This document shows, piece by piece, positions 9,330 through 39,072 of a DNA stretch of 64,000 nucleotides. Both the position numbers and the translations under genes were made by a program. This DNA is from a virus (Duplodnaviria > Heunggongvirae > Uroviricota > Caudoviricetes): positions 30,621-94,620 of IMG/VR virus record IMGVR_UViG_3300032050_000049; one strand, given 5' to 3'. How positions within the stretch are numbered: position 1 is the first letter of the stretch; every line of letters starts with the position of its first letter. A model generated the notes under the pieces. The model made no database searches, was not told the origin of the DNA, and worked only from the letters and a program-made list of their open reading frames with translations.

Positions 9330-10013
9330 ATGTACTATAGCCCACGAATAGTCACAAGCGGTTTGGTATTGGCACTAGATGCAGCTGAACGTCTTAGCTA
9401 TCCTCGCACAGGCACAACGTGGCGTGATTTAAGCGGTAATAGTAACAATGGCACATTAACCAATGGTCCTACTTTTAGCGCGGGTAATATGGGTAGTATA
9501 GTTTTCGATGGTGTGGATGATTATGTTAATATGGGCACAAGCACTTATTGTAATCTTATTAATATAAGTGTTTCTGTTTGGGTAAGAGTCACTAGTGCAA
9601 GTGGATATTTTTTGGGTAGATATAATAACATTACTGCTTTTAATGGGTTTATTATGTATTATGATGTAGCATCAACTAAATTTGGTGTTGGTGGTAGAGA
9701 ATCGAGCGCCACATATTTAAATAGTGCAACGATAAATACATATCCGTTAAATAACTGGTATAATTTTACCTGGACAAAATCCGCAAATGTTTGGTCGCTT
9801 TATGTTAATGGTTCTTTAGATGTATCATCTGCACTTGGAAATGGAACCACACCATATTCAAATAATACTATGTGGCTTGGCGCAAATAATGAAGGCGGTA
9901 CCCAATATTATTCCGGTGGAAATTTATCTAATGTTTTTATATACAACAGAACAATAACTGCCGTTGAAGTATTGCAAAATTATAACGCAACTAAAAGTAG
10001 ATTTGGTAGATAA
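9330..10013 (+). CDS. LamG/concanavalin A-like lectin-domain protein, tandem paralog 1
   Basis: 'LDAAE..SYP..GT.WRDLSGN.NNGTLTNGPTFS..N.GSIVFDG.DDY' and the C-terminal 'IYNR.ITA.E.LQNYNATK.RFG' signature. Confidence 0.7.
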   Translation: MYYSPRIVTSGLVLALDAAERLSYPRTGTTWRDLSGNSNNGTLTNGPTFSAGNMGSIVFDGVDDYVNMGTSTYCNLINISVSVWVRVTSASGYFLGRYNNITAFNGFIMYYDVASTKFGVGGRESSATYLNSATINTYPLNNWYNFTWTKSANVWSLYVNGSLDVSSALGNGTTPYSNNTMWLGANNEGGTQYYSGGNLSNVFIYNRTITAVEVLQNYNATKSRFGR

Positions 10014-10024
10014 TTATAGTATAT

Positions 10025-10729
10025 ATGTCTGGTATATCAGGACCCAAAATAATTACAAGTGGATGTGTTTTATCACTAGATGCAGCTGATAAAAACAGTT
10101 ATCCTGGTAGCGGCACAGCTTGGCGAGATTTGAGTGGTAATGGAAAAAATCTCACATTAACAAACGGTCCTACATTTAGTGCTGGTAATCAAGGTAGTAT
10201 AGTTTTTGATGGTACAAATGATTATGCGGTTTTGAATCCAGTATCTGCATTTAATATATACTGTATTAGTATGTGGTTTAAACCAACAACAATAATTAAT
10301 TCTACATCGGCTTATAAACCTTTAATTCATTTCAAAAGTAGTACTGCTAAATATATAAGTTTTGGCGATACAACAAACCGTGTTGCGAATGAATATATTA
10401 CTATTGTACAAGAACCAGGTGACAGAAGAACGGCTGTTAACGATGGAGGGTCTTTATCTGCTGGTGTCTGGTATAATGTTGTTTTTAACTACGAAAGTTC
10501 TAAATACAATATTTATATAAATAATACATTAAAAAGTACAACTATTGGTTCTTCTTTAGGTGATGTCCCATTAATAACAGATCCAGATTTTATATATTTA
10601 AATTCTTATGAAGGAGTTTCTGGATATTTAGATAGTTCATTATCTATATGTACGATTTATAACAGAACATTAACCGCATCTGAATTATTACAAAATTATA
10701 ACGCAGTTAAAAATAGATTTGGATTATAA
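10025..10729 (+). CDS. LamG lectin-domain protein, tandem paralog 2
   Basis: Same conserved N- and C-terminal framework; divergent middle. Confidence 0.7.
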   Translation: MSGISGPKIITSGCVLSLDAADKNSYPGSGTAWRDLSGNGKNLTLTNGPTFSAGNQGSIVFDGTNDYAVLNPVSAFNIYCISMWFKPTTIINSTSAYKPLIHFKSSTAKYISFGDTTNRVANEYITIVQEPGDRRTAVNDGGSLSAGVWYNVVFNYESSKYNIYINNTLKSTTIGSSLGDVPLITDPDFIYLNSYEGVSGYLDSSLSICTIYNRTLTASELLQNYNAVKNRFGL

Positions 10730-10738
10730 TTATAGTAT

Positions 10739-11449
10739 ATGGGAATAGCCAGAGGTCCAAAAATTGTAACAAGCGGTTTATTATTAGCACTAGATGCGGC
10801 CGATAAAAACAGTTACGCTGGTAGCGGCACAGCTTGGCGAGATTTGAGTGGTAATAGTAATAATGGCACATTGACAAATGGACCTACATTTAGTGCGGGT
10901 AATCAAGGAAGTATCGTTTTTGATGGCACAAATGATTACGTTGATACAGTTAATACCGGAACAACTTTTCAATTTGCAAATGTCACATTTACTGTGAGTT
11001 TATGGATAAAAACAAGCGCTACAAGTGGTGTTATTATTTCTAAAGGTGCAACTGCTTCTACGGCAGGTTGGCTGTTTCAATTTAACTCCGAAGGAACAGT
11101 TTCTGGTACTACAAAAGGTTCTGATGGTACTAATACTTATAACAGAGCAAGCACAGCAACAGTCAATAATAATACTTGGAGAAATATAGTATCAGTATAT
11201 ACAACTAATACAACAACTCTTGCGAGTAATACAACATCAATATATATAGATGGTGTTTTAAGTAATGGTACAGGTACATTAGGCGGATTAGTATATGCGA
11301 CAACTACAGATACTGTTCAAATAGGTAGAAGACCTTCCGGTGCTTATTGGTCCGGCTCTGTATCTAATTTATTGATATACAACAGAGCATTAACCGCAAC
11401 AGAAATCTTACAAAACTATAACGCAACAAAAGGTAGATACGGACTATAA
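10739..11449 (+). CDS. LamG lectin-domain protein, tandem paralog 3
   Basis: Same framework; divergent middle. Confidence 0.7.
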   Translation: MGIARGPKIVTSGLLLALDAADKNSYAGSGTAWRDLSGNSNNGTLTNGPTFSAGNQGSIVFDGTNDYVDTVNTGTTFQFANVTFTVSLWIKTSATSGVIISKGATASTAGWLFQFNSEGTVSGTTKGSDGTNTYNRASTATVNNNTWRNIVSVYTTNTTTLASNTTSIYIDGVLSNGTGTLGGLVYATTTDTVQIGRRPSGAYWSGSVSNLLIYNRALTATEILQNYNATKGRYGL

Positions 11450-11766: not shown

Positions 11767-14217
11767 ATGATATTTAGAGCTACAAATTCATCGTCGTTTC
11801 TATTTAATCCTATCTACCCAATCTTTCTTACCAGAAAGTATTTGGGTACGCCTCTTTCATTAAATAGACGCAATCTCATTTTCAGAGTAAAAGTAGTAGA
11901 AAGCGCAAGTTTAAATCTTACTCTTAATTCAGCGCTTACCGAATTAAACACAGAATCATCTACCAATAATATAACATTACGATCTGCTAATGTTATACCA
12001 TTATATACCCCAGCTACATTATACAGTTCTCTTAATAGTGTTTCTATACCATCGTCAATTGGAGATAAAATTGATTATGCACAATCACTAAACAGTGTAA
12101 CTTATACAAACGCAAATGTAGAATCTGTAACAATATCACCAGGCTTAAATAACATAAGTTTAAAACTTGACGGTGATAAATCAGTAAATTCAATTAATCT
12201 TTCAAATGTTCAATTAATTGACCCAAGAATAAATATTGGTAATCAAAATATAGCACTAAATAGTACCATATATGATACTCCAATATTAAACTCAAGTGCT
12301 ATATACAATACATTAAATAATGTTGATCATTATAAAAATATAACTGATCAAACAATAACTAATATAGCATTAAACGGTTCAAATTATTACACTGATATAT
12401 TAGATAGTGGTAATACAAACATATCACTTAATAGTATTATCACTTATAAGCCTGATATAGATAATTCAATAAACAGTATCAACTTACATAGCACATTACA
12501 TTTGCCTGTTCAAGTTGATATGGGAAGTAATGTTGTGCAGTTGTTGGGATCATCTTATTATACAAACATATATGATACATCTCAAACCGCAGTATCTGTA
12601 TTGGGATCACAATATTATGTAAACTACACAGATACGTCGCAAACCGCTGTATCTACATTGGGATCACAGTATTATGTGGATTTCTACGATACGTCACAAA
12701 CTGCAGTATCCACACTTGGATCACAATATTATGTTGACTTTTATGATGTATCGCAAATTGCAGAAACAGTACTGGGTTCACAATATTATGTAGATTTTTA
12801 TGACTCATCACAAACCGCAGTATCCACACTTGGATCTCAATATTATGTAAATTTTTATGATGCGTCGCAAAATGCGGAAACTGTACTGGGTTCACAATAT
12901 TATGTAAATTTTTACAATGCATCACAAACCGCTGTATCAACGGTGGGATCTCAATATTATGTAAACTATACTGACGCATCCGATACTTCATTAGCACTAA
13001 ATTCTTCTGGGTATTATGTAAATTATACGGATACATCAATTAATACAAGTAATATAGTTGGTTTAAACAATTATGTAGATTTTTCTGATATATCCAATAA
13101 TTCTATAGCTTTAAATAAATTAAGCAACTATGTTAATTTTGATGATGTATCTATTTCAAATAATGTTTTGGGTAGTCTAAATCATAATCCTGTACAACTT
13201 GAAATTGTAAATGAAAATCTAACTATTTCTAGTCTCAATTATAAATCAATTAATTTAGAAATTGTAAATGAAAATCTTACCATCAATAGTTTAAATTACA
13301 ATTATTATGCTACTGATTTAATTGCTCAAAATAATGGTTTAAATAGTTTAATATTAAAATCTGCTGATTATGATGACAGTGTTTCATTTGCAACATCTTT
13401 AAATTCTGTAACATTTGTACCAAACGAATACATAAAATCGGTTATCCAAAATAGTAGTGTATTGACCAATTTGAGTATGTTTCAAGGACCATATTCAAAT
13501 AATATGACATACAATGTAGCATTAACTAATTTGAATTATTCGTTGAGTGAATATAATAAATTGGTTAATACCACAGATAATTTGCGTAAATTGGTATATG
13601 AAGATGAATCCAACAATAAGTTGGTAAATCAATCATCTAACTTAAGATCGTTAAGATATGATGATACTAGATTTGAAGTAAATGTTAGTGAAAACAATAG
13701 ATTATCATCGTTAAGAAATTTACTTGACTCAAATAATAGCACAAAAATATCTGGGTCATTTAAAAATATATCATATAATGCAGCATTAATTGATACTGTA
13801 TTGGGTTCAAATACTACATTTAGACCATACAGTACCGCTTCAGCTGTTACATTTAATAGTGATTCACCCACAAATTATGTAAAACAAATCAATATTATTT
13901 ACTATATGAACGGGGGTAATTTAACTCAAAGTATAGTAAATTTTGGTGAAGATTTAGCATTTCAAGTAATAGGTAATTCTAATCCTGGCACATATGTAAC
14001 CAACTTTGATTATAATACACCCTACAGAGCCAGTTTTATTACAAAAAATTGGCCAGTATATCAATATGATACAGGTTCCAACGCAAACCTACCTGTTATA
14101 CTCAATTGTTCCAATGTTGAACGTAAAATAAGCGCAACATCAGGTATATGGGTAGAAGCATCATTGGAAGACGGTGGAACATTGGTGGATGAATACGGAT
14201 TTAGTATAGATATATAA
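11767..14217 (+). CDS. Repeat-rich structural or fibre protein (816 aa) with 9 x 17-aa tandem repeats
   Basis: 'LGSQYYV[ND][FY][YT]D.SQTAVST' is repeated. N/S/T-rich composition. Confidence 0.65.
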   Translation: MIFRATNSSSFLFNPIYPIFLTRKYLGTPLSLNRRNLIFRVKVVESASLNLTLNSALTELNTESSTNNITLRSANVIPLYTPATLYSSLNSVSIPSSIGDKIDYAQSLNSVTYTNANVESVTISPGLNNISLKLDGDKSVNSINLSNVQLIDPRINIGNQNIALNSTIYDTPILNSSAIYNTLNNVDHYKNITDQTITNIALNGSNYYTDILDSGNTNISLNSIITYKPDIDNSINSINLHSTLHLPVQVDMGSNVVQLLGSSYYTNIYDTSQTAVSVLGSQYYVNYTDTSQTAVSTLGSQYYVDFYDTSQTAVSTLGSQYYVDFYDVSQIAETVLGSQYYVDFYDSSQTAVSTLGSQYYVNFYDASQNAETVLGSQYYVNFYNASQTAVSTVGSQYYVNYTDASDTSLALNSSGYYVNYTDTSINTSNIVGLNNYVDFSDISNNSIALNKLSNYVNFDDVSISNNVLGSLNHNPVQLEIVNENLTISSLNYKSINLEIVNENLTINSLNYNYYATDLIAQNNGLNSLILKSADYDDSVSFATSLNSVTFVPNEYIKSVIQNSSVLTNLSMFQGPYSNNMTYNVALTNLNYSLSEYNKLVNTTDNLRKLVYEDESNNKLVNQSSNLRSLRYDDTRFEVNVSENNRLSSLRNLLDSNNSTKISGSFKNISYNAALIDTVLGSNTTFRPYSTASAVTFNSDSPTNYVKQINIIYYMNGGNLTQSIVNFGEDLAFQVIGNSNPGTYVTNFDYNTPYRASFITKNWPVYQYDTGSNANLPVILNCSNVERKISATSGIWVEASLEDGGTLVDEYGFSIDI
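12541..13000 (+). repeat. 9 x 51-bp in-frame tandem repeat
   Basis: 'ttgggatcacaatattatgtaaa.t..a..gat.cgtc.caaaccgc.gtatc' recurs. Confidence 0.8.
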
Positions 14218-14241: not shown

Positions 14242-17200
14242 ATGAGAATAACAGATCTACCACAATTATTTACAGCGTCTATCAATGATTTGCTGTACGT
14301 AATTGATGTAAACGATACAAGTAGCTTTTTTTCTGGGTCAAGCAAAAGAATAGACATTAGTACTCTTTTTTCTTCACCTAGCATAACCGCTAGTTTTGCT
14401 AAAAAAGCATTAAGTGCTAGTTATGCTAAAACAGCCAGTTACGCACTAGTATCAAGATCATCCAGTTACGCATTTAATGCTACAACCGCAAGTTATGCAT
14501 TAAATGCTGGTACCAAAATATACACAGGCAGTGTATATCCAATAACCGCAAGTTGGGCTATCAATGGTGGCACCAAATTGTATACCGGCAGTACATACCC
14601 AATAACTTCCAGTTGGGCACTCAATGGTGGCACAAAGTTATATACTTCCAGTACATATCCAATAACCGCAAGTTGGGCCATAACCGCGAGTTACGCTTTA
14701 AATCAAACCACCAGCGGTACATCAGGCACTTCTGGCACCGCAGGTAGTAGCGGAACAAGTGGTACCAGTGGCACAAGTGGTACCAGTGGCACCAGTGGAA
14801 CAAATGGCACCAGTGGATCAAGTGGGTCAAGTGGATCAAGTGGTACATCTGCAACCGCTGGTACTAGTGGTTTAACAGGATCAAGTGGTACGAGTGGTAC
14901 AAGCGGCAGTGATGGTACCAGTGGGTCAAGCGGTAGCAGTGGCAGCAGTGGTACCAGCGGTATAGAAGGTGGTAGATTGTTTACCGTAACAAGTTCTGGA
15001 TTTAATTATAATATCGCTGGTTACACTGGATCATTTCCTACCATTACGGTGGTAAGGGGACAATTATATTACTTTGATGTAAGCGGTGTATCTGCGTCAC
15101 ATCCATTTGCCTTGAGATTGTCAAGTGGCAATACTAGTGCTGTACCTGGCACCACAAATAATGATCCTGTAAATGGATTGGCAAATACAAACACTTTAAT
15201 AATTTACAGAGTACCTGAAGACGCTCCTTCTAGTATAGTTTACCAATGTGTTGTACATTCAGGTATGATTGGAACTATAAATATAGTAAACCAATATGGT
15301 ACATCTGGTACATCTGGTACTGCGGGAACAGCCGGTAGTAGCGGAAGTAGTGGCACAAGTGGTAGTGATGGTACCAGTGGGTCTAGCGGTAGTAGTGGAG
15401 AATCTGGTACAAGTGGTAGCAGTGGAAGTAGTGGAAGTAGTGGTAGTAGCGGATCTAGCGGTAGTAGCGGTAGTAGTGGAAGTAGTGGTACAAGCGGCAG
15501 TGATGGTACCAGTGGATCCAGCGGTAGCAGTGGCAGTAGTGGAACAAGTGGTATAGAAGGTGGTGGTTTATTTACAGTAACTAGTTCTGGTTTTAATTAT
15601 AACATTGCTGGTTATTCTGGTACTTTTCCTACTATTACGGTAGTGAGAGGTCAGTTGTATTATTTTAATGTAAGCGGCGTATCTGCATCACATCCATTTG
15701 CATTGAGATTATCAAGTGGTAATACTGCAACAGTACCAGGAACAACAAACAATGATCCTGTAAATGGATTGGCAAATACAAACACTTTAATAATTTACAG
15801 AGTACCCAATGATGCGCCTAATAGTATAGTTTATCAGTGCGTTATACATTCAGGTATGATTGGAACTATAAACATAGTTGATCAATATGGTACATCCGGT
15901 ACATCTGGTACTACGGGAACAGCTGGATCAAGTGGTAGCAGTGGTAGCAGTGGTAGCAGTGGTGAAAATGGTACAAGTGGTACTAGCGGTAGTACTGGTA
16001 CAAGTGGTAGCAGTGGATCCAGTGGAAGTAGTGGAACAAGTGGTACGTCCGCAACTGCTGGTACAAGTGGTGAAACTTTTGGTACCAGTGGTACTAGCGG
16101 CAGTACAGGAACAAGTGGTACTAGTGGAGAATCTGGTACAAGTGGTAGCAGTGGATCCAGTGGAAGTAGTGGAACAAGCGGCACCAATGGTACATCTGCA
16201 ACTGCTGGTACAAGCGGTGAAACTTTTGGTACCAGTGGTACCAGTGGATTGACGGGAACTAGCGGTACATCTGGTAGTACCGGAACAAGTGGTAGCAGTG
16301 GTAGCAGTGGAGAATCAGGTACCAGTGGAAGTAGTGGACAATCTGGTACTAGTGGCAGTAGTGGTAATACTGGTAGCAGCGGTAGTAGTGGTGTGAGTGG
16401 TACTACGTTGTATACTGGTAGCACATATCCTATAACGGCTAGTAGAGCTGTTACTGCAAGTTATGCGTTGAATGCTACTGGTGGTGGAAGTTCTTTGTAC
16501 ACTGGTAGTACTTATCCGATAACTGCAAGTTGGGCACTGTATGTAGTGAATGGAACTAGTGGTACTGCTTCATTGAATTTAACTAACATTACACGTAGTG
16601 GCAATGGAAGTGGTTCTGTTTATAATTTAAATAACAATACATTTACCGGCACAAATTCTTTGGTATTTCTGGGTGGTATTACTTTAAATAATAATATTGA
16701 TTATACACTGAGTTCTGGAATATTAACATTTACTTCCCCACCACTATTAAATGAAGAAATACACGTTGTTAAATTTACAGGTGGTGGTGCAAATGGTACT
16801 AGTGGTACAAGTGGCATAGTTGGTATTGCCAATGCGCAAACATTCACAAGCAATGGTATTGCTACACAATACGCTCTTACACAAAGTGTAGTACGTAGTT
16901 ATGACATTATAGTTGCTATAAATGGTGTGGTTCAAAATTACAGTTCCAGTTATACTGTAACTGGATCTACACTTACATTAGCTTCTGCACCACCATTAAA
17001 TTCTAAAGTGGATGTCAGATTTTTAGGTAGCGCAGCTGGCGGTGGAGGAGGCGGTAGCGGCACAAACGGTACAAGTGGATCAAGTGGATCAAGTGGTACT
17101 AGCGGCACAAGTGGGTCAAGTGGAGAATCAGGTACAAGTGGATCAAGTGGAGAATCAGGTACAAGTGGGTCAAGTGGGTCAAGTGGAGAATCAGGTACAA

Positions 17201-17865
17201 GTGGGTCAAGTGGTACTAGCGGCACAAGTGGATCAAGTGGAGAATCAGGTACAAGTGGGTCAAGTGGTACTAGCGGCACAAGTGGGTCAAGTGGAGAATC
17301 AGGTACAAGTGGATCAAGTGGGTCAAGTATATCTTTGCAAACTGGCAGTTTATATCCCATAACGGCAAGTAGAGCTATTACTGCAAGTTACGCATTGAAC
17401 GCAACTGGTGGTGGAAGTTCTTTGTATACTGGTAGTACTTATCCCATAACAGCGAGTAGAGCTATTACTGCAAGTTACGCATTGAATGCTTCTGGTGGAG
17501 GTGGTAGTACATTACAAACTGGTAGCACTTATCCCATTACTAGTAGTTATGCTAATTTTGCAATAAATATTGCTGGTAGTGTTACTACATTGGTGGGTAC
17601 TGATATAAATTGGAACAATCCAACTTATGAAAAGAATATTTCAGTTGCAGAGACATATACATTTTCAAATGTTACAACTGGCAGTTCAATTGTGGTTATA
17701 TTGAATAATACAGGCAGCAACAGTATATTATCTACATTTCCAAATAGTGTAAAATGGGCCAATTCATTGCCACCCACAAATATACTATCAAATGCAACTT
17801 CAATTTATACATTTGTAAGAACCAAATTATATGTTCTGGGTAGTTCTACTGAAAACTATCAATAA
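14242..17865 (+). CDS. Giant fibre protein (1207 aa): N-terminal ITDLP module, YPITAS repeats, four collagen-like runs, two cupredoxin-like domains
   Basis: Gly-X-Y runs. Duplicated roughly 110-aa domain with 'SASHPFAL...YQCV[VI]HSGMIG' (H...C-x2-H-x2-M). Confidence 0.75.
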   Translation: MRITDLPQLFTASINDLLYVIDVNDTSSFFSGSSKRIDISTLFSSPSITASFAKKALSASYAKTASYALVSRSSSYAFNATTASYALNAGTKIYTGSVYPITASWAINGGTKLYTGSTYPITSSWALNGGTKLYTSSTYPITASWAITASYALNQTTSGTSGTSGTAGSSGTSGTSGTSGTSGTSGTNGTSGSSGSSGSSGTSATAGTSGLTGSSGTSGTSGSDGTSGSSGSSGSSGTSGIEGGRLFTVTSSGFNYNIAGYTGSFPTITVVRGQLYYFDVSGVSASHPFALRLSSGNTSAVPGTTNNDPVNGLANTNTLIIYRVPEDAPSSIVYQCVVHSGMIGTINIVNQYGTSGTSGTAGTAGSSGSSGTSGSDGTSGSSGSSGESGTSGSSGSSGSSGSSGSSGSSGSSGSSGTSGSDGTSGSSGSSGSSGTSGIEGGGLFTVTSSGFNYNIAGYSGTFPTITVVRGQLYYFNVSGVSASHPFALRLSSGNTATVPGTTNNDPVNGLANTNTLIIYRVPNDAPNSIVYQCVIHSGMIGTINIVDQYGTSGTSGTTGTAGSSGSSGSSGSSGENGTSGTSGSTGTSGSSGSSGSSGTSGTSATAGTSGETFGTSGTSGSTGTSGTSGESGTSGSSGSSGSSGTSGTNGTSATAGTSGETFGTSGTSGLTGTSGTSGSTGTSGSSGSSGESGTSGSSGQSGTSGSSGNTGSSGSSGVSGTTLYTGSTYPITASRAVTASYALNATGGGSSLYTGSTYPITASWALYVVNGTSGTASLNLTNITRSGNGSGSVYNLNNNTFTGTNSLVFLGGITLNNNIDYTLSSGILTFTSPPLLNEEIHVVKFTGGGANGTSGTSGIVGIANAQTFTSNGIATQYALTQSVVRSYDIIVAINGVVQNYSSSYTVTGSTLTLASAPPLNSKVDVRFLGSAAGGGGGGSGTNGTSGSSGSSGTSGTSGSSGESGTSGSSGESGTSGSSGSSGESGTSGSSGTSGTSGSSGESGTSGSSGTSGTSGSSGESGTSGSSGSSISLQTGSLYPITASRAITASYALNATGGGSSLYTGSTYPITASRAITASYALNASGGGGSTLQTGSTYPITSSYANFAINIAGSVTTLVGTDINWNNPTYEKNISVAETYTFSNVTTGSSIVVILNNTGSNSILSTFPNSVKWANSLPPTNILSNATSIYTFVRTKLYVLGSSTENYQ
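14509..14690 (+). repeat. 3 x 60-bp tandem repeat encoding 'GGTKLYTGSTYPITASWALN'
   Basis: Direct repeats visible in DNA and protein. Confidence 0.75.
14710..14950 (+). repeat. Collagen-like Gly-X-Y run 1 of the 14242 protein
   Basis: GTSGTSGTAGSSG... periodicity. Confidence 0.8.
14958..15300 (+). other. Cupredoxin-like domain copy 1 (amicyanin-like ligand spacing)
   Basis: 'SASHPFAL' His, 49 residues, then 'YQCVVHSGMIG' (C-x2-H-x2-M), then 'TINIV' beta-strand. Confidence 0.55.
15298..15548 (+). repeat. Collagen-like run 2
   Basis: GTSGSSG periodicity. Confidence 0.8.
15550..15890 (+). other. Cupredoxin-like domain copy 2
   Basis: Same ligand set 'SASHPFAL...YQCVIHSGMIG'. Confidence 0.55.
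15893..16400 (+). repeat. Collagen-like run 3 (longest, about 170 aa) with two 'SATAGTSGETFGTSGTSG' sub-duplications
   Basis: Gly-X-Y periodicity; internal duplicate blocks. Confidence 0.8.
17040..17330 (+). repeat. Collagen-like run 4 (GTSGSSGESG units)
   Basis: Near-perfect 27-nt sub-repeats 'ggtacaagtgggtcaagtggagaatca'. Confidence 0.8.
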
Positions 17866-17873: not shown

Positions 17874-19241
17874 ATGCCTATATCAAGAATAACCAGAAAT
17901 AGTCTAGTATACGCCAATAACAAAACTCAAAACATTGAGTCTAGACTATTTGGCTTACCAACACAATCAGGCTCACTTTATTTGCAAAATAGTCAATCAC
18001 TATATTTGCAAGATTTAAGCGGTACATACGTACTAGAATATCCTTCCGCAATCGCATTATCCTATAACAGTTACTACAATAAATTCATAGCCGATAGGTC
18101 CACCCAAAACTCATTACTAACAACACGTTATTATACCAGTGAAAGTAAAGCTACTGGCGATTTTGGCTATATACTGTACCAAAATAGTAGATCAATGTAT
18201 ACTCAAGCTACCCCAGACATTTATTTGCTTGAATATAGCGCTACAAGCAGTTTGTTAACTGATACAGGATCAAGTGCTTTATCGCTCAAAACACGTTACT
18301 TTGTTAGTGAAAGTAAAGCTACTGGCGATTTTGGCTATATATTGTATCAAAATAGCAGATCAATGTATACTCAAGCTACTCCAGACATTTATTTGCTTGA
18401 ATATAACGCTACAAGCAGTTTGTTAACTGATACAGGATCAAGTGCTTTATCGCTCAAAACACGTTACTTTGTTAGTGAAAGTAAAGGAAGTGGTAACTTT
18501 GGTTATATACTGTATCAAAATAGCAGATCCGTATATCTACAAGATCCAAATAGTATACTTTTATTATATGATCCAGATATTATACCAGTTGGCACCAGTG
18601 CAAGTTTACAAGAAACTGGATCAAATGTTTTATCTTTTAGAACTCGTTATTATATCAGTGAAAGTAAAGCGTCAAGTATATATCTAGGTTATCAAAATGA
18701 TAGAAGCATCTATTTAGAAAATACTGCAAATCCATTTGTCATAGAATATAACGGTACAAGCAGTTTGTTAACTGATACCGGATCAAATGCTTTATCTTTT
18801 AGAACTCGTTATTATATCAGTGAAAGTAAAGCGTCAAGTATCTTCTTGGGTTATCAAAATGATAGAAGCATCTATTTAGAAAATACCGCAAATCCATTTG
18901 TCATAGAATATAGTGGTACAAGTAGTTTGTTAACTGATACCGGATCAAGTGCTTTATCGTTCAGAACCAAATACTATATCAGTGAAAGTAAAGCGTCAAG
19001 TATCTTCTTGGGTTATCAAAATGATAGAGCTGTATATTTGGAGAATACTGATAATCCATTTGTTATAGAATATAGTACTACGAGCAGTTTGTTAACTGAT
19101 AGCGGGTCAATTAATCAGTTATTATTAACAAAGTATTATCTCAGTGAAAGTATAGCGTCAGGTAGTTTATATATTGGATATCAAAATGATAGAAGTATCT
19201 ATTTAGAGAATTTAACCGATGTATTTGTTTTGGAGCCATAA
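17874..19241 (+). CDS. Repeat protein (455 aa), about 8 x 56-aa tandem repeats
   Basis: 'TRY[FY][IV]SESKA.G.FGY[IQ]...RS.Y...' recurs with a 168-171 nt period. Confidence 0.65.
   Translation: MPISRITRNSLVYANNKTQNIESRLFGLPTQSGSLYLQNSQSLYLQDLSGTYVLEYPSAIALSYNSYYNKFIADRSTQNSLLTTRYYTSESKATGDFGYILYQNSRSMYTQATPDIYLLEYSATSSLLTDTGSSALSLKTRYFVSESKATGDFGYILYQNSRSMYTQATPDIYLLEYNATSSLLTDTGSSALSLKTRYFVSESKGSGNFGYILYQNSRSVYLQDPNSILLLYDPDIIPVGTSASLQETGSNVLSFRTRYYISESKASSIYLGYQNDRSIYLENTANPFVIEYNGTSSLLTDTGSNALSFRTRYYISESKASSIFLGYQNDRSIYLENTANPFVIEYSGTSSLLTDTGSSALSFRTKYYISESKASSIFLGYQNDRAVYLENTDNPFVIEYSTTSSLLTDSGSINQLLLTKYYLSESIASGSLYIGYQNDRSIYLENLTDVFVLEP
18100..19210 (+). repeat. About 8 x 168-171-bp in-frame tandem repeat
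   Basis: Near-identical blocks, for example 18290-18460 and 18120-18290. Confidence 0.8.
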
Positions 19242-19302: not shown

Positions 19303-20670
19303 ATGTCAACAGGAATAAACAACAATATTGATTGTAAATTGCAAGGCAAAGTTCGTGTTGTGGTTATGGAAAAAGACAAAATCATACACGACACTGGTGA
19401 AATAAAAAATATGATCACCAATCAAGGTATGGATGAAGTTGCAAATAGACCATTTGCTGAATTATTCGCTTGTTGTGCAATTGGAACTGGAACTGCTGAT
19501 ACTAAAAAAACCAATGTTCCCATAACTGGTTCCATAACATCAGGCAATGGTTTTGATATTAATTTAAGAGGCAGTGTTTCTCGTAGATCTGGATCATTGG
19601 TAACGTTTCCCAGAACAAGTGTAGCATTTCCTATATCAGGCAGTGTTATTAGAGCAAGTGATGTGGGTAATATCATTAAAATAAACAACGATAATACTTT
19701 TAGAATAAGAGCACAAACTGGTATTAATACAGCCAGAAGTTGTAGTGTATTAAATATGGATGGTACTGTACCAACAGGATCCTCAAGTGATAATAATTAT
19801 ACCATTTGGTTTACCAATCAAATTAGTATGTCAAATGAAACACAAAGATGTGGTAGAACATCAGATGGCAATAACTTTCCTGCTGCATCAGGTAGTTATG
19901 GTACAAATTGTAATAGTCAAATTTATAGCAGCGGTATAATTCACAGTCGTCAATTTAATTTTGCAACCGCATTGGTTGATGATACAAATACAATCACTGA
20001 AGTTGGATTGAGTTGGTTACCATTTTATAGAAGTCCAGCATTGTTTAGTAGAATTCGTTTGACCCAAGGCAGTGCTGGTAATGCGATACCTGCTGTATTG
20101 GCTGGACAAAACGTGGTGGTATTTTATTCACTAAACGTTGGTATGTCGCCTACCACAGCTACAACCGGTTCTGTTAATATAACTGGTAGCAATAAAGGTG
20201 GTAATTCACAAATGAATTTGTATGGATTAAGCAAAGTAAGTAGCAGTGGAGTAACAACTTATTTTGATGGTGGGTTACACGGCAATGAACCATATTATTT
20301 TAACCAAAGAAGTAAATACGGACTACCAGATACAGTTTTTAGACCACTGTATATATTTACATCCGCAACTGATACTGCAAGTCCTACGTGGGGTACAAAT
20401 ATAACTAGAAATAGTAGTTTTATTACCAAATCAATTGATAAAACACCTGTATATAGTAGAGTATATCCCACCAGCAGTTATGGTTATACATTAACCAAAG
20501 TGGCTACATTCAATGATACTGAATCTATCAATGCAACTTGGAACAGTTTTGGTGTGGGTGTACATACAGCCAGTAACTTGATGTCATTTGTATTTGGTGC
20601 TACTCAAAATAAACAAAATGGATATTTGTTAGCAATATCTCAATCGTTTACTTGGAATAGAATATTTTAA
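19303..20670 (+). CDS. Hypothetical structural protein (455 aa)
   Basis: Long ORF after a 61-bp AT-rich gap; S/T/N-rich. Confidence 0.55.
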   Translation: MSTGINNNIDCKLQGKVRVVVMEKDKIIHDTGEIKNMITNQGMDEVANRPFAELFACCAIGTGTADTKKTNVPITGSITSGNGFDINLRGSVSRRSGSLVTFPRTSVAFPISGSVIRASDVGNIIKINNDNTFRIRAQTGINTARSCSVLNMDGTVPTGSSSDNNYTIWFTNQISMSNETQRCGRTSDGNNFPAASGSYGTNCNSQIYSSGIIHSRQFNFATALVDDTNTITEVGLSWLPFYRSPALFSRIRLTQGSAGNAIPAVLAGQNVVVFYSLNVGMSPTTATTGSVNITGSNKGGNSQMNLYGLSKVSSSGVTTYFDGGLHGNEPYYFNQRSKYGLPDTVFRPLYIFTSATDTASPTWGTNITRNSSFITKSIDKTPVYSRVYPTSSYGYTLTKVATFNDTESINATWNSFGVGVHTASNLMSFVFGATQNKQNGYLLAISQSFTWNRIF

Positions 20671-20690: not shown

Positions 20691-21869
20691 ATGCCACAAC
20701 CAATATCACAATTAGCAGACTATACAACAATAACAGGATCCGCATTTGTTCCTATTGTTGATGTTAATGAAACAGTATCATCAAAAAACAAAAAGATCAG
20801 TGTAGATGATTTGAGAAAAACTTTCTTTAAAAGTGGAGTTCTTCTTTCATCTTCTTTCACAGAACATACGCCGGGTTTTTATTACTTTGGTGACAATCGT
20901 GATGGTCGTCTCAATTTAACAGGTTCAATTGCCACTGTTAGAACTTTTGTAAGCAGATCGTTCGCAAGTACACAAGATGGCGCACCTGTCGTTAAAAACT
21001 TTAGTTCGTTGTTCATTTCCAGAAGTGTGGTGGTGAGTCCAACCAATAGATGTAGAGGATTGTTGATATTTGTGGATGGTGATGCAACCATCAGTGGTAG
21101 CATAAGTATGACTGCTAGAGGAGCGAGGTTTACAGGAAGCGACGCTTCCTTCACAACAATAAATCCGCCATATTTGGGTGATTACTGGAGCACGCAGTTG
21201 TTTCCGTCTGCGAGTTATTTGAGCAGAGTATTTGCGGTTGGAGCGGCTGGTGGTACGGCTGGCCCCGCTCCATCTAGCGTTGGTGGCGTTGGTGTCACTG
21301 GTATACTGGGAAGAAGTGGAGGTGGAGGAGGCGGCGGTGGACAAGCAGCCGCGGGTGGAGCGGGATCAACAGGCACATCTTTTAGTGGTGGATCTGGTGG
21401 TGGAGGAGGTGGGCCATCTCCAGGAGCAAATGGCTTTGCATTTGGTGGTCAAGGTGGTCCAACGCTTGGTAGCGGCGGCGCCGGATCAGGCAATCCAGGT
21501 GGAATAACGCCAGCTCAGCCGCCCAGTAGTCCACTCCCAGTCTCAGCACCAAGTGGTACTGGTGGATTGTTAATATTAATAGTGAAAGGTAATTTAAGAA
21601 TTGGACCAAATGGATCAATTACGGCTAATGGAATCAGTGGTGGTAATGGACTTGCTGGTTTTGGAACTGCTGGTGGCGGTGGAAGTGGAGGTGGAGTGTT
21701 ATATATTTATTATGGTGGGTCTTTAACAAATAATGGCACTGTAACTGCTAATGGTGGGTCAGGTGGTTTAACTGGTACACCCTCGCCAGCTCTTAATCAA
21801 GGCGGAGCAGGAGGAGCTGGAACTGCGATAATATCAAAATTAAACGTTGCATTTCCAGTAGCAAACTAA
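20691..21869 (+). CDS. Gly-rich solenoid-like paralog 1 with N-terminal ITDL module
   Basis: 'NRCRGLLIFVDGDATISG', 'GTGGLLILIVKGNLRIGPNG', 'GGGGSGGGVLYIYYGG..TNNGTVTANGGSGG'. Confidence 0.7.
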   Translation: MPQPISQLADYTTITGSAFVPIVDVNETVSSKNKKISVDDLRKTFFKSGVLLSSSFTEHTPGFYYFGDNRDGRLNLTGSIATVRTFVSRSFASTQDGAPVVKNFSSLFISRSVVVSPTNRCRGLLIFVDGDATISGSISMTARGARFTGSDASFTTINPPYLGDYWSTQLFPSASYLSRVFAVGAAGGTAGPAPSSVGGVGVTGILGRSGGGGGGGGQAAAGGAGSTGTSFSGGSGGGGGGPSPGANGFAFGGQGGPTLGSGGAGSGNPGGITPAQPPSSPLPVSAPSGTGGLLILIVKGNLRIGPNGSITANGISGGNGLAGFGTAGGGGSGGGVLYIYYGGSLTNNGTVTANGGSGGLTGTPSPALNQGGAGGAGTAIISKLNVAFPVAN

Positions 21870-21881
21870 ATAATTATTTAT

Positions 21882-23006
21882 ATGCCTACAAGAATATCAG
21901 ATTTACCCGAATATACAACAATAACATCATCAGCATTTGTGCCTATTGTTGATGTTAATGAATTGGTAGCTTCAAAAAATAAAAAAATAAGAATTGACGA
22001 TTTAAGAAAATATTTTTTCACAGGCACAACCACCAGCAGTTCTTTCACAGAACATACCCCAGGCCTTTATTACTTTGGCGATAACAGCGACGGACCTCTT
22101 AACTTAACAGGCTCTATCGCCACCGTTAGAACTTTTGTAAGCAGATCCTTCGCAAGCACTCAAGATGGCGCGCCTGTCGTTAAGAACTTCAGTTCATTGT
22201 TCATTTCCAGAAGCGTAGTAGTGAGTCCAACAAATAGATGTAGAGGAATGTTGATATTTGTGGATGGTGATGCAACTATTAGTGGTAGTCTACGAATGAA
22301 CGGCAGAGGTGCTTCCGCGGTTGGAGCTGATGCGTCTTTTACAACAATAAATCCGCCATATTTGGGTGATTACTGGAGCACGCAATTGTTTCCTTCGTCG
22401 AGTTATTTGAGCAGAGTATTTGCTGTAGGCGCAGCAGGTTCAGGCTATGGAACTGATGGGGTAACTGGTGTAAATGGAAGATCTGGTGGCGGAGGAGGTG
22501 GGTCTAGTTATGGTGCACCGACAGCAGGTTCAGGCGCAACCGGCACATCGTTTAGTGGTGGTTCTGGTGGAGGTGGATCCCAGGTTAACGTCATCGCCGG
22601 AGGAAGTGCGAGTGGAAATGGTGGCGCAGGGGGAAATGGCGCAACCGGCCCCGGCGGTACCGGCGGCGGTGGAGCTGGAAATCCAGGCGGCACTCCAAAT
22701 GGAGGTGTAGGAACAGGTGGATTATTAATATTAATTGTACGAGGTAATTTAAGAATTGGGCCAAATGGCAGTATAACATCAAATGGTAGCAATGGCGGAA
22801 ATGCAAGTAGTCCAACGCAGGGCGGAGGAGGAGGTGGAAGTGGCGGTGGGGTGTTATATGTATATTATGGCGGTACACTAACAAACAATGGCACTGTAAC
22901 CGCATCTGGAGGCACCCGTGGCACGGGTGGAAACGTTGCTGGAAACGGTGGAGCTGGAACTGCTATATTATCAAAATTAAACGTTGCATTTCCAGCAGCA
23001 AACTAA
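21882..23006 (+). CDS. Gly-rich solenoid-like paralog 2
   Basis: About 75% identical N-terminal half to paralog 1. Confidence 0.7.
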   Translation: MPTRISDLPEYTTITSSAFVPIVDVNELVASKNKKIRIDDLRKYFFTGTTTSSSFTEHTPGLYYFGDNSDGPLNLTGSIATVRTFVSRSFASTQDGAPVVKNFSSLFISRSVVVSPTNRCRGMLIFVDGDATISGSLRMNGRGASAVGADASFTTINPPYLGDYWSTQLFPSSSYLSRVFAVGAAGSGYGTDGVTGVNGRSGGGGGGSSYGAPTAGSGATGTSFSGGSGGGGSQVNVIAGGSASGNGGAGGNGATGPGGTGGGGAGNPGGTPNGGVGTGGLLILIVRGNLRIGPNGSITSNGSNGGNASSPTQGGGGGGSGGGVLYVYYGGTLTNNGTVTASGGTRGTGGNVAGNGGAGTAILSKLNVAFPAAN

Positions 23007-23019
23007 TATTTAATAATAT

Positions 23020-24054
23020 ATGGCAAATAAACGTATAACAGATTTAACCGAAGCAACTTTTGTAAGTGCGAGTAATTTTTATGTTGTGTATGATCCTACA
23101 GCTACACAAGATCAAAATGCTGATGGTTATACTGATTTTAATAAAAAAGTAAAACTAAAAAATATTTGTACCCAAGTAAGTCAATCAGCCATCACTTGGT
23201 TTGGTACAGGCGCAAATGGTGCTTTAAATACAACAGGTAGTGTTACTTTTACCACTACAAATGATCAAGAAGTATTTGTGAGAAATTATACATCTCTCAC
23301 AGTAAATGCTGGTCATACAATGACTGTAAGCAACAGATGTAGAGGATTGTTGATATATGTTGGGGGAGATTGTACTATAAATGGTACAGTAACAATGTCA
23401 GGCAAAGGAGCCAACTCGGTTGGAACAGCTGCTCATTATGTATATCAATCTAAAAATTACTATGGCAACTTTATTCCCCAATATCAATTTAACAGCGTAA
23501 AATTATATGGATCTGGTAGTGCCGGTGGACCCGCAAATACTGCTGGTAGATCCGCAGGCGAAGGTTATACAGGTGGTGGAGGCGGTGGAGGTGGAACTGG
23601 TGGTGCTGGTGCAGCAGGCACCAGTTGGAGTGGTGGATCAGGTGGAGGTGGTGGACCATCTGCAACTGCAGGCACTATAAATGGTGGTGCTGGTGGTAAT
23701 GGTACAGCTGCGAATACTGGTGGTGGTGCTGGTAATGGTGGTGGCAGTGCTGGTCCAGGTGGTATAGCTGGTGGTACTGGTACAGGTGGTTTGATTATTT
23801 TTGTGGTAAAAGGTACATTTACATTGGGAAATACAGGTGCAATAACTGCAAATGGTGTTGCGGGTGGAAATGGTAGTGCAGGAGGAGGAGGAGGTAGTGG
23901 AGGTGGAAGAATAGTTGTATTATACAATCAAAATTATATAAATAATGGTGGTACTATTACTGCAAATGGTGGAGCTGGTGGAGGAACTGCTCCAACTGCT
24001 GGTGGCAGTGGGGGAGCCGGTAGCATAACAATAAGAGAAATAGGAATTTGGTAA
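23020..24054 (+). CDS. Gly-rich solenoid-like paralog 3
   Basis: Same motif set (NRCRGLLIYVGGDCTING; GGGGSGGGRIVVLY). Confidence 0.7.
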   Translation: MANKRITDLTEATFVSASNFYVVYDPTATQDQNADGYTDFNKKVKLKNICTQVSQSAITWFGTGANGALNTTGSVTFTTTNDQEVFVRNYTSLTVNAGHTMTVSNRCRGLLIYVGGDCTINGTVTMSGKGANSVGTAAHYVYQSKNYYGNFIPQYQFNSVKLYGSGSAGGPANTAGRSAGEGYTGGGGGGGGTGGAGAAGTSWSGGSGGGGGPSATAGTINGGAGGNGTAANTGGGAGNGGGSAGPGGIAGGTGTGGLIIFVVKGTFTLGNTGAITANGVAGGNGSAGGGGGSGGGRIVVLYNQNYINNGGTITANGGAGGGTAPTAGGSGGAGSITIREIGIW

Positions 24055-24071
24055 AATATTTATAAAGTTAT

Positions 24072-25313: not shown

Positions 25314-25319
25314 AATTTT

Positions 25320-28139: not shown

Positions 28140-28173
28140 AAGAAAAACTATTTATTAGTTACACAAAGAGATT

Positions 28174-28503
28174 ATGAGAGATACAATTATAATACATAAT
28201 ATTCATGACAAAGCGAGTAGAGAATTTGTTGCTGCATATGGTAACAGAAATGATGTTACTGTATTGGAAGACGACGGACTAAATGTACGTTTAGCGTTTC
28301 CTTATATCAGCGCTTTTCCTACTGTTGTAATACCCACACCATCTTATGAAAATACAGATGAAAATGGAACAGTAACCCAAATCGAAGGATCTATAGAATA
28401 TCTAAGAGCACCTGAAGATTGGAATACAGTACAAACACGAATTGATTATTGGGAAAACAAAGTACCCAATTGGAAACAAACTGATAGTAGATACAAACAA
28501 TAA
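28174..28503 (+). CDS. Hypothetical protein; paralog of 26540..26908
   Basis: About 60% identity with the 26540 protein. Confidence 0.55.
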   Translation: MRDTIIIHNIHDKASREFVAAYGNRNDVTVLEDDGLNVRLAFPYISAFPTVVIPTPSYENTDENGTVTQIEGSIEYLRAPEDWNTVQTRIDYWENKVPNWKQTDSRYKQ

Positions 28504-28508
28504 TTAAA

Positions 28509-28883: not shown

Positions 28884-28931
28884 TTTATAATAAGTACTGT
28901 TGTGTAAATAAAAACTATATATTAAAAAGTT

Positions 28932-29111: not shown

Positions 29112-29120
29112 AATAGTTTT

Positions 29121-29575: not shown

Positions 29576-29581
29576 AATATA

Positions 29582-30927: not shown

Positions 30928-30931
30928 AATT

Positions 30932-39056: not shown

Positions 39057-39072
39057 ATTTATCCTTTCTAAA

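What the first reader, a model, noticed from the sequence alone, without database searches (positions are those of the whole stretch)
14958..15890. Two cupredoxin-like domains with a full type-1 copper ligand set inside a collagen-like phage fibre protein
The 1207-aa protein (14242..17865) carries a duplicated module of about 110 aa. Each copy has 'SASHPFAL' (the N-terminal His) and, 49 residues later, 'YQC[VI][VI]HSGMIG' followed by a beta-strand. That is C-x2-H-x2-M, the amicyanin- or pseudoazurin-type Cu-ligand loop at canonical spacing. Collagen-like Gly-X-Y runs flank each copy. Soluble plastocyanin genes are known in cyanophages, but a tandem pair of cupredoxin-fold domains built into a tail-fibre or adhesin is unusual. 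It could be a metal-binding or redox-sensing adhesin, or a co-opted binding scaffold. Both copies conserve all four ligands, which argues for selection on the metal site.
Basis: partly seen in the sequence, partly recalled or inferred. Interest (0 to 1): 0.8.

Follow-up and report, generated by a model that had tools for sequence, protein, structure and literature searches.

The report
Blue-copper-type domains in phage fibre
A collagen-like fibre protein of an uncultured phage carries two copies of a small domain with the fold and the complete copper-binding residue set of blue copper proteins; the same unannotated domain is widespread in baseplate and tail-fibre proteins of marine cyanophages, suggesting that these virions carry copper sites.

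Summary
ORF 14242..17865 (1207 aa) contains two 113-aa modules (aa 240-352 and 437-549, 91% identical). Each has His...Cys-x2-His-x2-Met and is inserted directly between long Gly-X-Y runs.

- A family profile hits almost only cupredoxins among PDB sequences (best E 7e-6).
- hhalign puts the four residues exactly on amicyanin His53/Cys92/His95/Met98.
- Across 232 domain instances, 195 are H-C-H-M, and whenever Cys is lost the second His is lost too (27 of 27).
- The whole protein has only 2 Cys, 5 His and 2 internal Met. All but one His are these positions.
- The two copies are under strong purifying selection (dN/dS 0.08, dS 0.72).

The module is not unique to this window. It defines a large family (3768 clusters at 50% identity) that Pfam and NCBIfam do not curate. 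The family occurs in gp9-like baseplate connectors and tail fibres of 310 cyanophage records, and as secreted, membrane-anchored small proteins in bacteria.

Copper binding and ligand geometry were not tested. My best reading is metal-stabilised knobs in a trimeric fibre. A redox or sensing role is not excluded.

The parts
14242..17865 (+). ORF of 1207 aa: collagen-like, presumably trimeric, phage fibre protein that carries the two modules
   Evidence: ORF listing. Pfam Collagen E 7.5e-50 in 9 stretches. PHROG tail-fibre families match through the collagen parts. The identical protein occurs on 9 metagenome contigs. Upstream genes match baseplate wedge and virion structural PHROGs.
14959..15297 (+). 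Cupredoxin-fold module 1 (aa 240-352)
15550..15888 (+). Cupredoxin-fold module 2 (aa 437-549), 91% identical to module 1
   Evidence: 112 bits. dN/dS against module 1 is 0.077 at dS 0.72.
15100..15102 (+). His287 codon: proposed N-terminal His ligand of module 1 (motif SASHPFAL)
   Evidence: The column is 90% His in the family. It aligns with amicyanin His53.
15247..15267 (+). Ligand loop of module 1: Cys336-x2-His339-x2-Met342
   Evidence: The columns are 88%, 87% and 91% conserved. They align without gaps to amicyanin C92/H95/M98 and to the fused cupredoxin of the nitrite reductase 9cck. In the model, Cys ends strand 92-97 and His and Met lie in the loop before strand 104-110.
15691..15693 (+). 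His484 codon: proposed N-terminal His ligand of module 2
   Evidence: same column as His287.
15838..15858 (+). Ligand loop of module 2: Cys533-x2-His536-x2-Met539
   Evidence: same columns as in module 1.
14716..14976 (+). Collagen-like Gly-X-Y segment (aa 159-245, 28 triplets with one break) that runs straight into module 1
   Evidence: Gly-X-Y run analysis; Pfam Collagen.
15298..15567 (+). Collagen-like segment between the two modules (aa 353-442, 30 uninterrupted triplets)
15889..16407 (+). Collagen-like segment after module 2 (aa 550-722, 51 triplets in three runs)
   Evidence: 147-nt tandem repeat.
17041..17328 (+). Distal collagen-like segment (aa 934-1029, 32 triplets)
14518..14706 (+). 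Three 'LYTGSTYPITASWA' repeats at the N-terminal border of the first collagen segment. Five more copies lie at aa 723-765 and 1032-1105, always at collagen borders.
   Evidence: Motif search; 60-nt and 87-nt tandem repeats. Their role as helix-nucleating or registration elements is inference.
16549..17040 (+). Two small non-collagen domains (aa 770-933), uncharacterised
   Evidence: Read from the sequence. No family match.
17557..17865 (+). C-terminal non-collagen domain (aa 1106-1207), the presumed distal tip
   Evidence: Read from the sequence. No family match. The role is inferred from its position only.

Best explanation
Each module is a true cupredoxin domain. It belongs to a large cupredoxin family that no domain library curates, and it keeps an intact type-1 (blue copper) metal site: His-Cys-His-Met with the short ligand loop seen in amicyanin.

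The host protein is a collagen-like fibre and is therefore presumably a trimer. The two modules interrupt the triple helix without linkers, so they should form two nodes of three cupredoxin domains each, giving up to six metal sites per fibre.

The most likely working model has three parts:
- The site binds copper with very high affinity, as mononuclear cupredoxins do.
- The bound metal locks the C-terminal ligand loop and stabilises a compact knob that must survive outside a cell.
- The knobs act as rigid registration or adhesion nodes of the fibre. In cyanophage gp9-like and wedge proteins, the same module would act at the junction between baseplate and fibre.

Shown here: the fold, homology to cupredoxins, ligand positions aligned to solved copper proteins, conservation and correlated loss of the ligands, purifying selection on both copies, and the module's distribution.

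Inferred: trimer formation, copper as the metal, stabilisation as its role, and adhesion or registration as the module's role.
For: Fold:
- AF2 model with pLDDT 95.4 and pTM 0.88.
- Foldseek against PDB returns AcoP, laccases, nitrite reductase and rusticyanin.

Homology:
- The profile of 60 family members, searched against PDB sequences, hits Cu nitrite reductase fused cupredoxin domains at E 6.8e-6 and 4.3e-5. Plastocyanins, auracyanin, amicyanin, pseudoazurin and laccases follow.
- 12 of 60 members reach Pfam Copper-bind weakly.

Ligands:
- hhalign aligns the four residues to amicyanin H53/C92/H95/M98 without gaps.
- The plastocyanin alignment needs only the expected 2-residue loop insertion.
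- The positions are canonical in the model's strand layout.

Selection:
- H-C-H-M in 195 of 232 instances.
- Cys and the second His are lost together: 27 of 27 cases without Cys also lack it, and 202 of 205 cases with Cys keep it. Fisher p = 3e-32, not corrected for phylogeny.
- Variants at the axial position (HCHF five times, HCHY, HCNL) resemble the natural axial variation of type-1 sites.
- The ligand columns are among the dozen best conserved of 135.
- The protein contains no other Cys or internal Met and only one other His.
- dN/dS between the copies is 0.077.

Cellular relatives have a signal peptide, the module and a C-terminal membrane anchor, which is the layout of membrane-anchored blue copper proteins.

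Context: phrog_677 'baseplate wedge tail fiber protein connector'. 310 cyanophage records carry the module in gp9-like, wedge and tail-fibre proteins. 34 of 156 representative proteins have it next to Gly-X-Y runs.

Precedent for metals in phage fibres: the iron sites invoked by the Ferrojan Horse hypothesis (bioRxiv 10.1101/674382; PMC11705849, found).
Against: - No metal was measured, and side-chain distances in the model could not be read.
- The window's own modules reach no Pfam or NCBIfam model, even at E 10.
- The His is followed by Pro-Phe rather than the Asn that is common next to the first His in plastocyanin and amicyanin.
- Virion proteins fold in the host cytoplasm, where free copper is essentially absent and cupredoxins are not normally loaded (established knowledge). 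Loading would need a chaperone or uptake after lysis.
- 16% of family instances lack the full set, so the fold can function without the site.
- The tail-fibre assignment rests on collagen-driven PHROG hits and on the neighbourhood, not on a virion proteome.
Confidence: 0.6

Rival explanations
1. Redox-active or sensing site. The copper centre cycles between Cu(I) and Cu(II) and couples the state of the fibre or baseplate to the redox or light-dependent state of the host surface or the surrounding water. It might gate adsorption or baseplate triggering, or it might exchange electrons with a host envelope component.
For: The complete type-1 ligand set is the electron-transfer site of cupredoxins. 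In cyanophages the module sits in gp9-like connectors and wedge proteins. In T4 these are the parts that relay fibre binding to the baseplate (established knowledge). Among cultured phages, the module was found only in phages of photosynthetic hosts: 310 of 310 records.
Against: No partner, no second redox centre and no electron pathway is evident in the protein, which has no other Cys and only one other His. The domain is embedded in an inert collagen-like rod. 16% of copies have lost the site. The restriction to cyanophages may reflect which phages have been isolated, and the search used a single sequence.
Confidence: 0.12
2. Metal-free scaffold. The module is only a cupredoxin-shaped, Ig-like spacer or binding domain, like the copper-free cupredoxin-like domains of SufI/FtsP or the ephrins. 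Under this reading the four residues are conserved for packing, or are inherited from a cellular ancestor.
For: Ig-like beta-sandwich decorations are common in phage structural proteins (established knowledge). 37 of 232 instances lack the full set, including copies within otherwise intact multi-copy proteins. Cytoplasmic assembly makes copper loading hard. The closest Pfam entry by member count is PF25489, a domain of unknown function.
Against: An unpaired, solvent-facing Cys kept in 88% of copies of an extracellular protein that otherwise avoids Cys, His and Met entirely is hard to explain without a ligand role. Losses of Cys and the second His are coupled. Purifying selection is strong on both copies. 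Ligand conservation holds down to about 30% identity and across phage and cellular members.
Confidence: 0.12
3. The same site holds a different metal in vivo. Because the protein folds in the cytoplasm, the His2-Cys-Met site is occupied by Zn(II) or another available ion, which serves a purely structural role.
For: Recombinant cupredoxins made in the cytoplasm are often recovered as Zn forms (established knowledge). T4 fibres use Fe and Zn structurally (established knowledge; iron-in-fibre literature found).
Against: A conserved Met thioether (91%) and the Phe/Leu-type axial variants are hallmarks of copper sites, not zinc sites. Cellular family members are exported, which is where cupredoxins receive copper.
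Confidence: 0.14

Closest known systems
Amicyanin and the cupredoxin domains fused to Cu nitrite reductases (PDB 1aac; 9cck, 6hbe, 6tfd)
   Different: Identity is only 13-18%. The His is followed by Pro-Phe instead of Asn. The module has a longer segment between His and Cys (49 residues against 39 in amicyanin). It has no signal peptide and no redox partner, and it sits inside a collagen-like virion fibre rather than in a periplasmic electron-transfer chain.
Cyanophage gp9-like 'baseplate wedge tail fiber connector' C-terminal domain (phrog_677) and tail-fibre-like proteins of P-SSM2, P-SSM4, ACG-2014d and Sf-CH8
   Same: Homologous module at 37-43% identity, E down to 1e-15, with H-C-H-M kept. 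The predicted fold is the same in BFVD (E 8e-10, TM 0.76-0.80).
   Different: In those proteins the module is a single C-terminal or internal domain of baseplate or fibre proteins without collagen flanks. Here it is duplicated and spliced between Gly-X-Y runs. None of those records names the domain or a metal.
Cyanophage plastocyanin (petE auxiliary metabolic gene)
   Same: Cupredoxin fold with a type-1 ligand set, encoded by phages of the same ecological group. The family profile reaches plastocyanins at E 1e-3 to 3e-2.
   Different: petE is a soluble, exported electron carrier that works in the host thylakoid lumen. It has a C-x2-H-x4-M loop and is not a virion component. The fibre module is no closer to plastocyanin than to other cupredoxins.
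Pfam PF25489 'At5g54830-like domain' (named after a plant DOMON/cytochrome b561 protein)
   Same: Most frequently hit Pfam entry: 26 of 60 family members, with matches that span profile positions about 30-126 of 126. Two family proteins carry a precomputed PF25489 hit.
   Different: All matches seen here are below the 27-bit gathering score, and the window's copies do not match at all. I could not establish the function of that domain or whether it has ligands.
Metal sites in T4-type tail fibres (Fe in the gp37 tip, Zn in gp12) and the 'Ferrojan Horse' idea
   Same: Metal ions built into phage fibres as structural cofactors, with possible consequences for trace-metal pools (bioRxiv 10.1101/674382; PMC11705849).
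   Different: Those sites are formed by His residues contributed by three chains on the fibre axis. Here the site lies within one globular cupredoxin domain and has copper-type ligands.

Membership tests
Cupredoxin fold (blue copper protein superfamily) | Greek-key beta-sandwich of 7-8 strands | tested here: met
Cupredoxin fold (blue copper protein superfamily) | Detectable sequence homology to established cupredoxin families | tested here: met
   Family profile against PDB sequences: E 6.8e-6 and 4.3e-5 (nitrite reductase cupredoxin domains) and 1e-3 (plastocyanin). About 50 of the 60 listed hits are cupredoxins; the rest are mainly antibody Fab chains above E 0.06. hhalign to amicyanin gives E 1.5e-4. 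The single window sequence alone finds nothing significant.
Cupredoxin fold (blue copper protein superfamily) | Match to a curated model (Pfam PF00127 Copper-bind, PF13473 and similar) above the gathering score | tested here: not met
   The window modules give no Pfam hit at E <= 10. 12 of 60 family members hit PF00127, but below its cut-off (15.5-16 bits against 21.2). There is no NCBIfam hit.
Type-1 (blue) copper site | His, Cys, His and an axial Met (or Gln/Leu/Phe) at the canonical sequence positions: the first His before strand 4, Cys at the end of strand 7, and His and Met in the loop before strand 8 | tested here: met
   Gapless alignment to amicyanin H53/C92/H95/M98. Alignment to plastocyanin and nitrite reductase ligand loops. 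Positions relative to the strands of the model.
Type-1 (blue) copper site | The ligands are conserved across homologs | tested here: met
   H 90%, C 88%, H 87%, M 91%. 195 of 232 instances are H-C-H-M, with correlated loss. The ligands are kept in cultured cyanophage copies and in cellular members.
Type-1 (blue) copper site | The four side chains converge on one point in 3D | not testable with these tools
   The model's coordinates are not exposed; only pLDDT and secondary structure are returned. The ligand loop has pLDDT of about 98.
Type-1 (blue) copper site | Binds copper: absorption near 600 nm, a small parallel hyperfine splitting in EPR | not testable with these tools
   An experiment is needed.
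Type-1 (blue) copper site | Export to an extracytoplasmic compartment, where copper is loaded | tested here: not met
   The fibre protein has no signal peptide and is a phage structural protein. Cellular family members do have signal peptides and membrane anchors. A crude count gives 42 of 102 short members.
Collagen-like phage tail fibre | Long uninterrupted Gly-X-Y repeats | tested here: met
   146 triplets in 8 runs, the longest being 32. Pfam Collagen E 7.5e-50. PHROG tail-fibre and collagen-like minor tail families, E down to 5e-62.
Collagen-like phage tail fibre | Presence in the virion, attachment to the tail, trimeric state | not testable with these tools
   This is inferred from neighbouring baseplate wedge and virion structural PHROG matches and from collagen chemistry. 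No proteome or structure is available.
Pfam PF25489 At5g54830-like domain | Score at or above the 27-bit gathering threshold | tested here: not met
   The window modules give no hit. The best of the ten members scanned individually scored 25.9 bits. 26 of 60 match at E <= 1.

The most novel reading that the evidence does not exclude
Virions of marine and freshwater cyanophage-type myoviruses carry functional blue-copper centres in their baseplate connectors and fibres. The copper would not be merely structural. It would make adsorption or baseplate triggering depend on copper availability or redox state, which could offer a mechanism for light- or redox-dependent adsorption. It would also make phage particles a distinct, protein-bound copper pool in the sea, a copper counterpart of the Ferrojan Horse idea.
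Probability: 0.12. Interest if true: 0.9.

Novelty: new variant of a known kind. Interest (0 to 1): 0.68.

Why it matters
Blue copper sites are known as electron-transfer centres of exported cellular proteins, and in cyanophages as the soluble plastocyanin gene. A conserved, complete type-1 ligand set built into virion parts would be a new setting for this classic metal site. Those parts include collagen-like fibres, gp9-like baseplate connectors and wedge proteins.

The family is large: 3768 clusters at 50% identity, and 310 cyanophage genome records. It appears to be uncurated and undiscussed, and it has no solved structure.

It is directly testable. The 113-aa domain can be expressed and examined for colour and EPR signal, and purified cyanophage particles can be measured for copper.

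If copper is bound, this bears on three things:
- the stability of virions in seawater;
- how cyanophage baseplates and fibres are built;
- trace-metal budgets of very abundant marine viruses whose hosts are notably copper-sensitive.

Tried and rejected
- Single-sequence searches of the module against Pfam, NCBIfam and PDB sequences gave nothing significant. Only the profile and the fold comparison revealed the relationship.
- Megablast of the ORF and of 20 kb of the window against cultured phages found no match.
- A protein search with the RNA-ligase/tail-fibre attachment homolog found only relatives at 31% identity or less, in unrelated phages. Neither host nor lineage could be assigned. I therefore dropped the label 'T4-like cyanophage' for the window itself and call it an uncultured large tailed phage with cyanomyovirus-like structural gene families.
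Cellular membership rests instead on metagenome contigs and MAG names.
- I looked for further or degenerate copies of the module in all six frames of the window and found none beyond the two.
- I suspected that the two adjacent 455-aa ORFs were paralogs. They are not.
- I considered that conservation of the ligands merely reflects a recent duplication. I rejected this because dS is 0.72 with dN/dS 0.08 and because of the family-wide data.
- I considered descent from phage petE. This is not supported: plastocyanins are not the nearest cupredoxins, and their loop length differs.
- Ten literature searches found no paper that links cupredoxin or blue copper domains to phage fibres or baseplates. 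The library lacks most subscription journals, so this is not proof of absence.
Full report
**1. The observation**

ORF 14242..17865 (+) encodes a 1207-aa protein. 'SASHPFAL' occurs at aa 284 and 481, and 'YQCV[VI]HSGMIG' at aa 334 and 531. The putative ligands are therefore H287, C336, H339 and M342 in one copy and H484, C533, H536 and M539 in the other. His to Cys is 49 residues, and the loop is C-x2-H-x2-M.

The repeated unit is 113 aa: aa 240-352 (nt 14959-15297) and aa 437-549 (nt 15550-15888). The two copies share 103/113 aa and 288/339 nt.

Each copy is fused without a linker to Gly-X-Y runs on both sides. The protein holds 146 Gly-X-Y triplets in eight runs, and Pfam Collagen matches at E 7.5e-50.

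The composition is striking. The whole protein has only 2 Cys, 5 His and 3 Met including the initiator. Both Cys, four of the five His and both internal Met are the proposed ligands.

**2. What the module is: fold**

An AlphaFold2 model of module 1, built on an alignment of 60 family members, is very confident (mean pLDDT 95.4, pTM 0.88). It has eight beta-strands.

- small laccases;

Foldseek against the PDB agrees: AcoP, laccases, nitrite reductase and rusticyanin at about E 2e-4.

In the model, Cys97 (module numbering) is the last residue of strand 92-97. His100 and Met103 lie in the short loop before strand 104-110, and His48 precedes strand 50-53. This is the canonical placement of type-1 ligands. 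The tools do not expose coordinates, so I could not measure the convergence of the side chains.

**3. What the module is: sequence**

The single sequence matches no Pfam or NCBIfam model, even at E 10, and finds nothing significant among PDB sequences. The best of the weak hits that is a cupredoxin, a COX2 chain, aligns SASHPFAL with the CuA motif DVIHSFAL.

PHROGs places the module in phrog_677, 'baseplate wedge tail fiber protein connector', at positions 317-410 of 412 (E 5e-20).

An exhaustive profile search of 1.84 billion cluster representatives found 3768 proteins at E <= 1e-3 and 728 at E <= 1e-10.

A profile of 60 trimmed, diverse domains (alignment A2) was then searched against PDB sequences. 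Most of the hits are cupredoxins:
- fused cupredoxin domains of Cu nitrite reductases, E 6.8e-6 and 4.3e-5;
- plastocyanins from E 1e-3;
- two-domain laccases, auracyanin, pseudoazurin and amicyanin.

The family's Y-x-C-x2-H-x2-M-x-G stretch aligns on their Cys-His-Met loops.

hhalign of the profile with amicyanin puts the family's four residues exactly on His53, Cys92, His95 and Met98, with no gap in the ligand loop (E 1.5e-4). With plastocyanin, the expected two-residue insertion appears between His and Met.

Scanned one by one, 12 of 60 members reach Pfam Copper-bind (PF00127). 26 of 60 reach the recent entry PF25489 'At5g54830-like domain'. All the individual scores I saw are below the gathering scores.

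**4. Selection on the site**

In 232 domain instances from the 156 family proteins then in hand (the nine plus the best 150 representatives), the pattern at the four columns is H-C-H-M in 195. The columns are 90%, 88%, 87% and 91% conserved, which places them among the dozen best of 135.

Losses are coupled:
- All 27 instances without Cys also lack the second His.
- 202 of 205 instances with Cys keep it.
- Fisher p = 3e-32. This is not corrected for shared ancestry, so it is an indication rather than a probability.

Variants that change only the axial position occur (HCHF five times, HCHY, HCNL). Such variation is natural at type-1 sites of laccases and related oxidases (established knowledge).

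The two copies in the window differ at 51 of 339 nucleotides but at only 10 residues. That gives dS 0.72, dN 0.055 and dN/dS 0.077. The duplication is old, and both copies are maintained by selection.

**5. Where the family occurs**

Among cultured phages, a tblastn with module 1 finds 310 records, all phages of Synechococcus or Prochlorococcus. The matches lie in several kinds of protein:
- the C-terminal domain of 'gp9 baseplate wedge tail fiber connector' in P-SSM4 and ACG-2014d;
- a 'phage tail fiber-like protein' in P-SSM2 (PSSM2_028);
- a 1197-aa tail fibre in Sf-CH8.

All of these copies keep H-C-H-M. The next gene, 'baseplate wedge subunit', holds further diverged copies that also keep it.

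BFVD shows the same predicted fold in many cyanophage connectors, proximal long-tail-fibre proteins and peptidase-domain fibres (E down to 8e-10). None is named as a copper protein or cupredoxin.

Multi-copy arrangements are common: 66 of 149 proteins have two to six copies. In 34 of 156 representative proteins the module abuts Gly-X-Y runs, and 14 instances are flanked on both sides. The design seen here is therefore recurrent.

The family also has cellular members. These are proteins of 110-220 aa from bacterial MAGs and long non-viral contigs, with a signal peptide, the module, a Pro/Ala linker and a C-terminal hydrophobic anchor followed by Arg residues. All of them have the ligands. That is the architecture of membrane-anchored blue copper proteins.

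Public sources call almost all members 'hypothetical protein'. JGI's pipeline labels two of them 'plastocyanin'.

**6. The host protein and its genome**

The order along the protein is as follows:
1. An N-terminal region with Ala/Ser/Tyr-rich repeats.
2. Three 'LYTGSTYPITASWA' motifs.
3. Collagen (aa 159-245).
4. Module 1.
5. Collagen (aa 353-442).
6. Module 2.
7. Collagen (aa 550-722).
8. Two more YPITAS motifs.
9. Two small globular domains (aa 770-933).
10. Collagen (aa 934-1029).
11. Three YPITAS motifs.
12. A C-terminal domain of about 100 aa.

Only this ORF in the window carries the module.

Upstream genes match cyanomyovirus-type baseplate wedge and virion structural PHROGs. The other half of the window encodes DNA ligase, two RNA-ligase-family proteins and thymidylate synthase.

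The window has no nucleotide match to any cultured phage. Its RNA-ligase/fibre attachment homolog is at most 31% identical to anything cultured. The identical fibre protein is present on nine metagenome contigs. This is an uncultured large tailed phage, and its host is unknown.

**7. How it most likely works**

Shown: cupredoxin fold, homology to cupredoxins, a canonical ligand set under selection, and a location in virion structural proteins.

Inferred: Gly-X-Y runs form triple helices, so the fibre is a trimer, and each module position is a node of three cupredoxin domains.

My preferred mechanism is that each domain binds one copper ion at the His2-Cys-Met site. The metal would lock the ligand loop and raise the stability of a knob that must persist outside cells. 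The knobs would serve as registration or adhesion nodes in the fibre. In cyanophages they would serve at the baseplate-fibre junction. Structural metal sites in T4-type fibres are a precedent (papers found).

The main difficulty is metallation, because virion proteins fold in a cytoplasm with essentially no free copper. Loading may need a host chaperone, or it may happen after lysis. Alternatively the site may hold Zn in vivo.

Rival readings are a redox or sensing role, a metal-free scaffold, or a different metal. None is excluded, and they are scored separately.

**8. Comparison with what is known, and novelty**

The module works like, and by fold and profile belongs to, the cupredoxin superfamily. 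By loop length it is closest to amicyanin and to the cupredoxin domains fused to nitrite reductases. It fails membership of every curated sequence model that I tested.

No solved structure belongs to the family. No paper in the searchable library links cupredoxins or blue copper to phage fibres or baseplates. That library omits most subscription journals.

I therefore rate it a new variant of a known kind: an uncurated cupredoxin family with an intact type-1 ligand set, deployed as a building block of phage baseplates and fibres. The sequences themselves have been in public cyanophage genomes for years, and the window's copy is one instance among thousands. This tempers the score.

**9. Verdict**

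Copper binding and its role remain to be shown by experiment. Interest 0.68.

Noticed in passing
window 14518-14706, 16408-16536, 17335-17556: Eight copies of a roughly 14-aa motif, 'L[YQ]TGS[TVL]YPIT[AS]S', usually followed by 'A.TASYALN', always sit at the borders of the collagen-like segments of the fibre protein. They may nucleate or register the triple helix. No family match was found.
   Followed up: partly
window 11767-14217 (+): The 816-aa ORF just upstream is very AT-rich (GC 0.28). It carries about 7 tandem 57-nt (19-aa) repeats, 'VLGSQYYV[DN]FYD.SQTAVST', and matches no PHROG family. It is probably another fibre or decoration protein.
   Followed up: partly
window 17874-19241 (+) and 19303-20670 (+): Two adjacent ORFs of exactly 455 aa each. 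The first consists of repeats of about 55 aa (162-168 nt, up to 94% identical). Despite the equal length the two are not paralogs (BLASTP E > 3). Neither has a PHROG match.
   Followed up: yes
window 9330-11449 (+): Three consecutive paralogous ORFs (227, 234 and 236 aa) all match the same PHROGs (24074 and 8510, virion structural). This is a tandem triplication of a small structural protein.
   Followed up: no
window 20691-26543 (+): Five consecutive ORFs of 344-413 aa lie in a region of raised GC (0.41-0.45) and strong GC skew. Three were scanned against PHROGs (20691-21869, 21882-23006 and 24072-25313) and none matched; the other two were not scanned. This may be a further block of unknown structural genes.
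   Followed up: no
window about 28000-31000: Gene orientation and GC skew flip here: the + strand structural block ends and a - strand block of nucleotide-metabolism and ligase genes begins. No tRNA genes occur anywhere in the window.
   Followed up: partly
window 38046-39098 (-) and 44171-45262 (-): Two RNA-ligase-family genes (phrog_968 RNA ligase; phrog_562 RNA ligase and tail fibre attachment catalyst). The second is at most 31% identical to any cultured phage protein.
   Followed up: partly
L001 2795-5285 (P-SSM4) and L004 2795-5291 (ACG-2014d): The 'baseplate wedge subunit' gene that follows gp9 in cultured cyanophages contains additional, more diverged copies of the same module with long insertions. 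They still keep His...Cys-x2-His-x2-Met.
   Followed up: partly
P0243 (209 aa): A cellular family member joins the module to C-terminal EF-hand or dockerin-like repeats (PF00036, PF13405). It has extra Cys residues, which suggests a cell-surface or scaffold-attached form.
   Followed up: no
L006 (ENA contig NODE_2837) against L005 and L007: One metagenome contig encodes the identical 1207-aa fibre but has a 292-aa gene downstream where the others have the repeat-rich 455-aa gene. This points to repeat-number variation in the neighbouring gene between populations.
   Followed up: no
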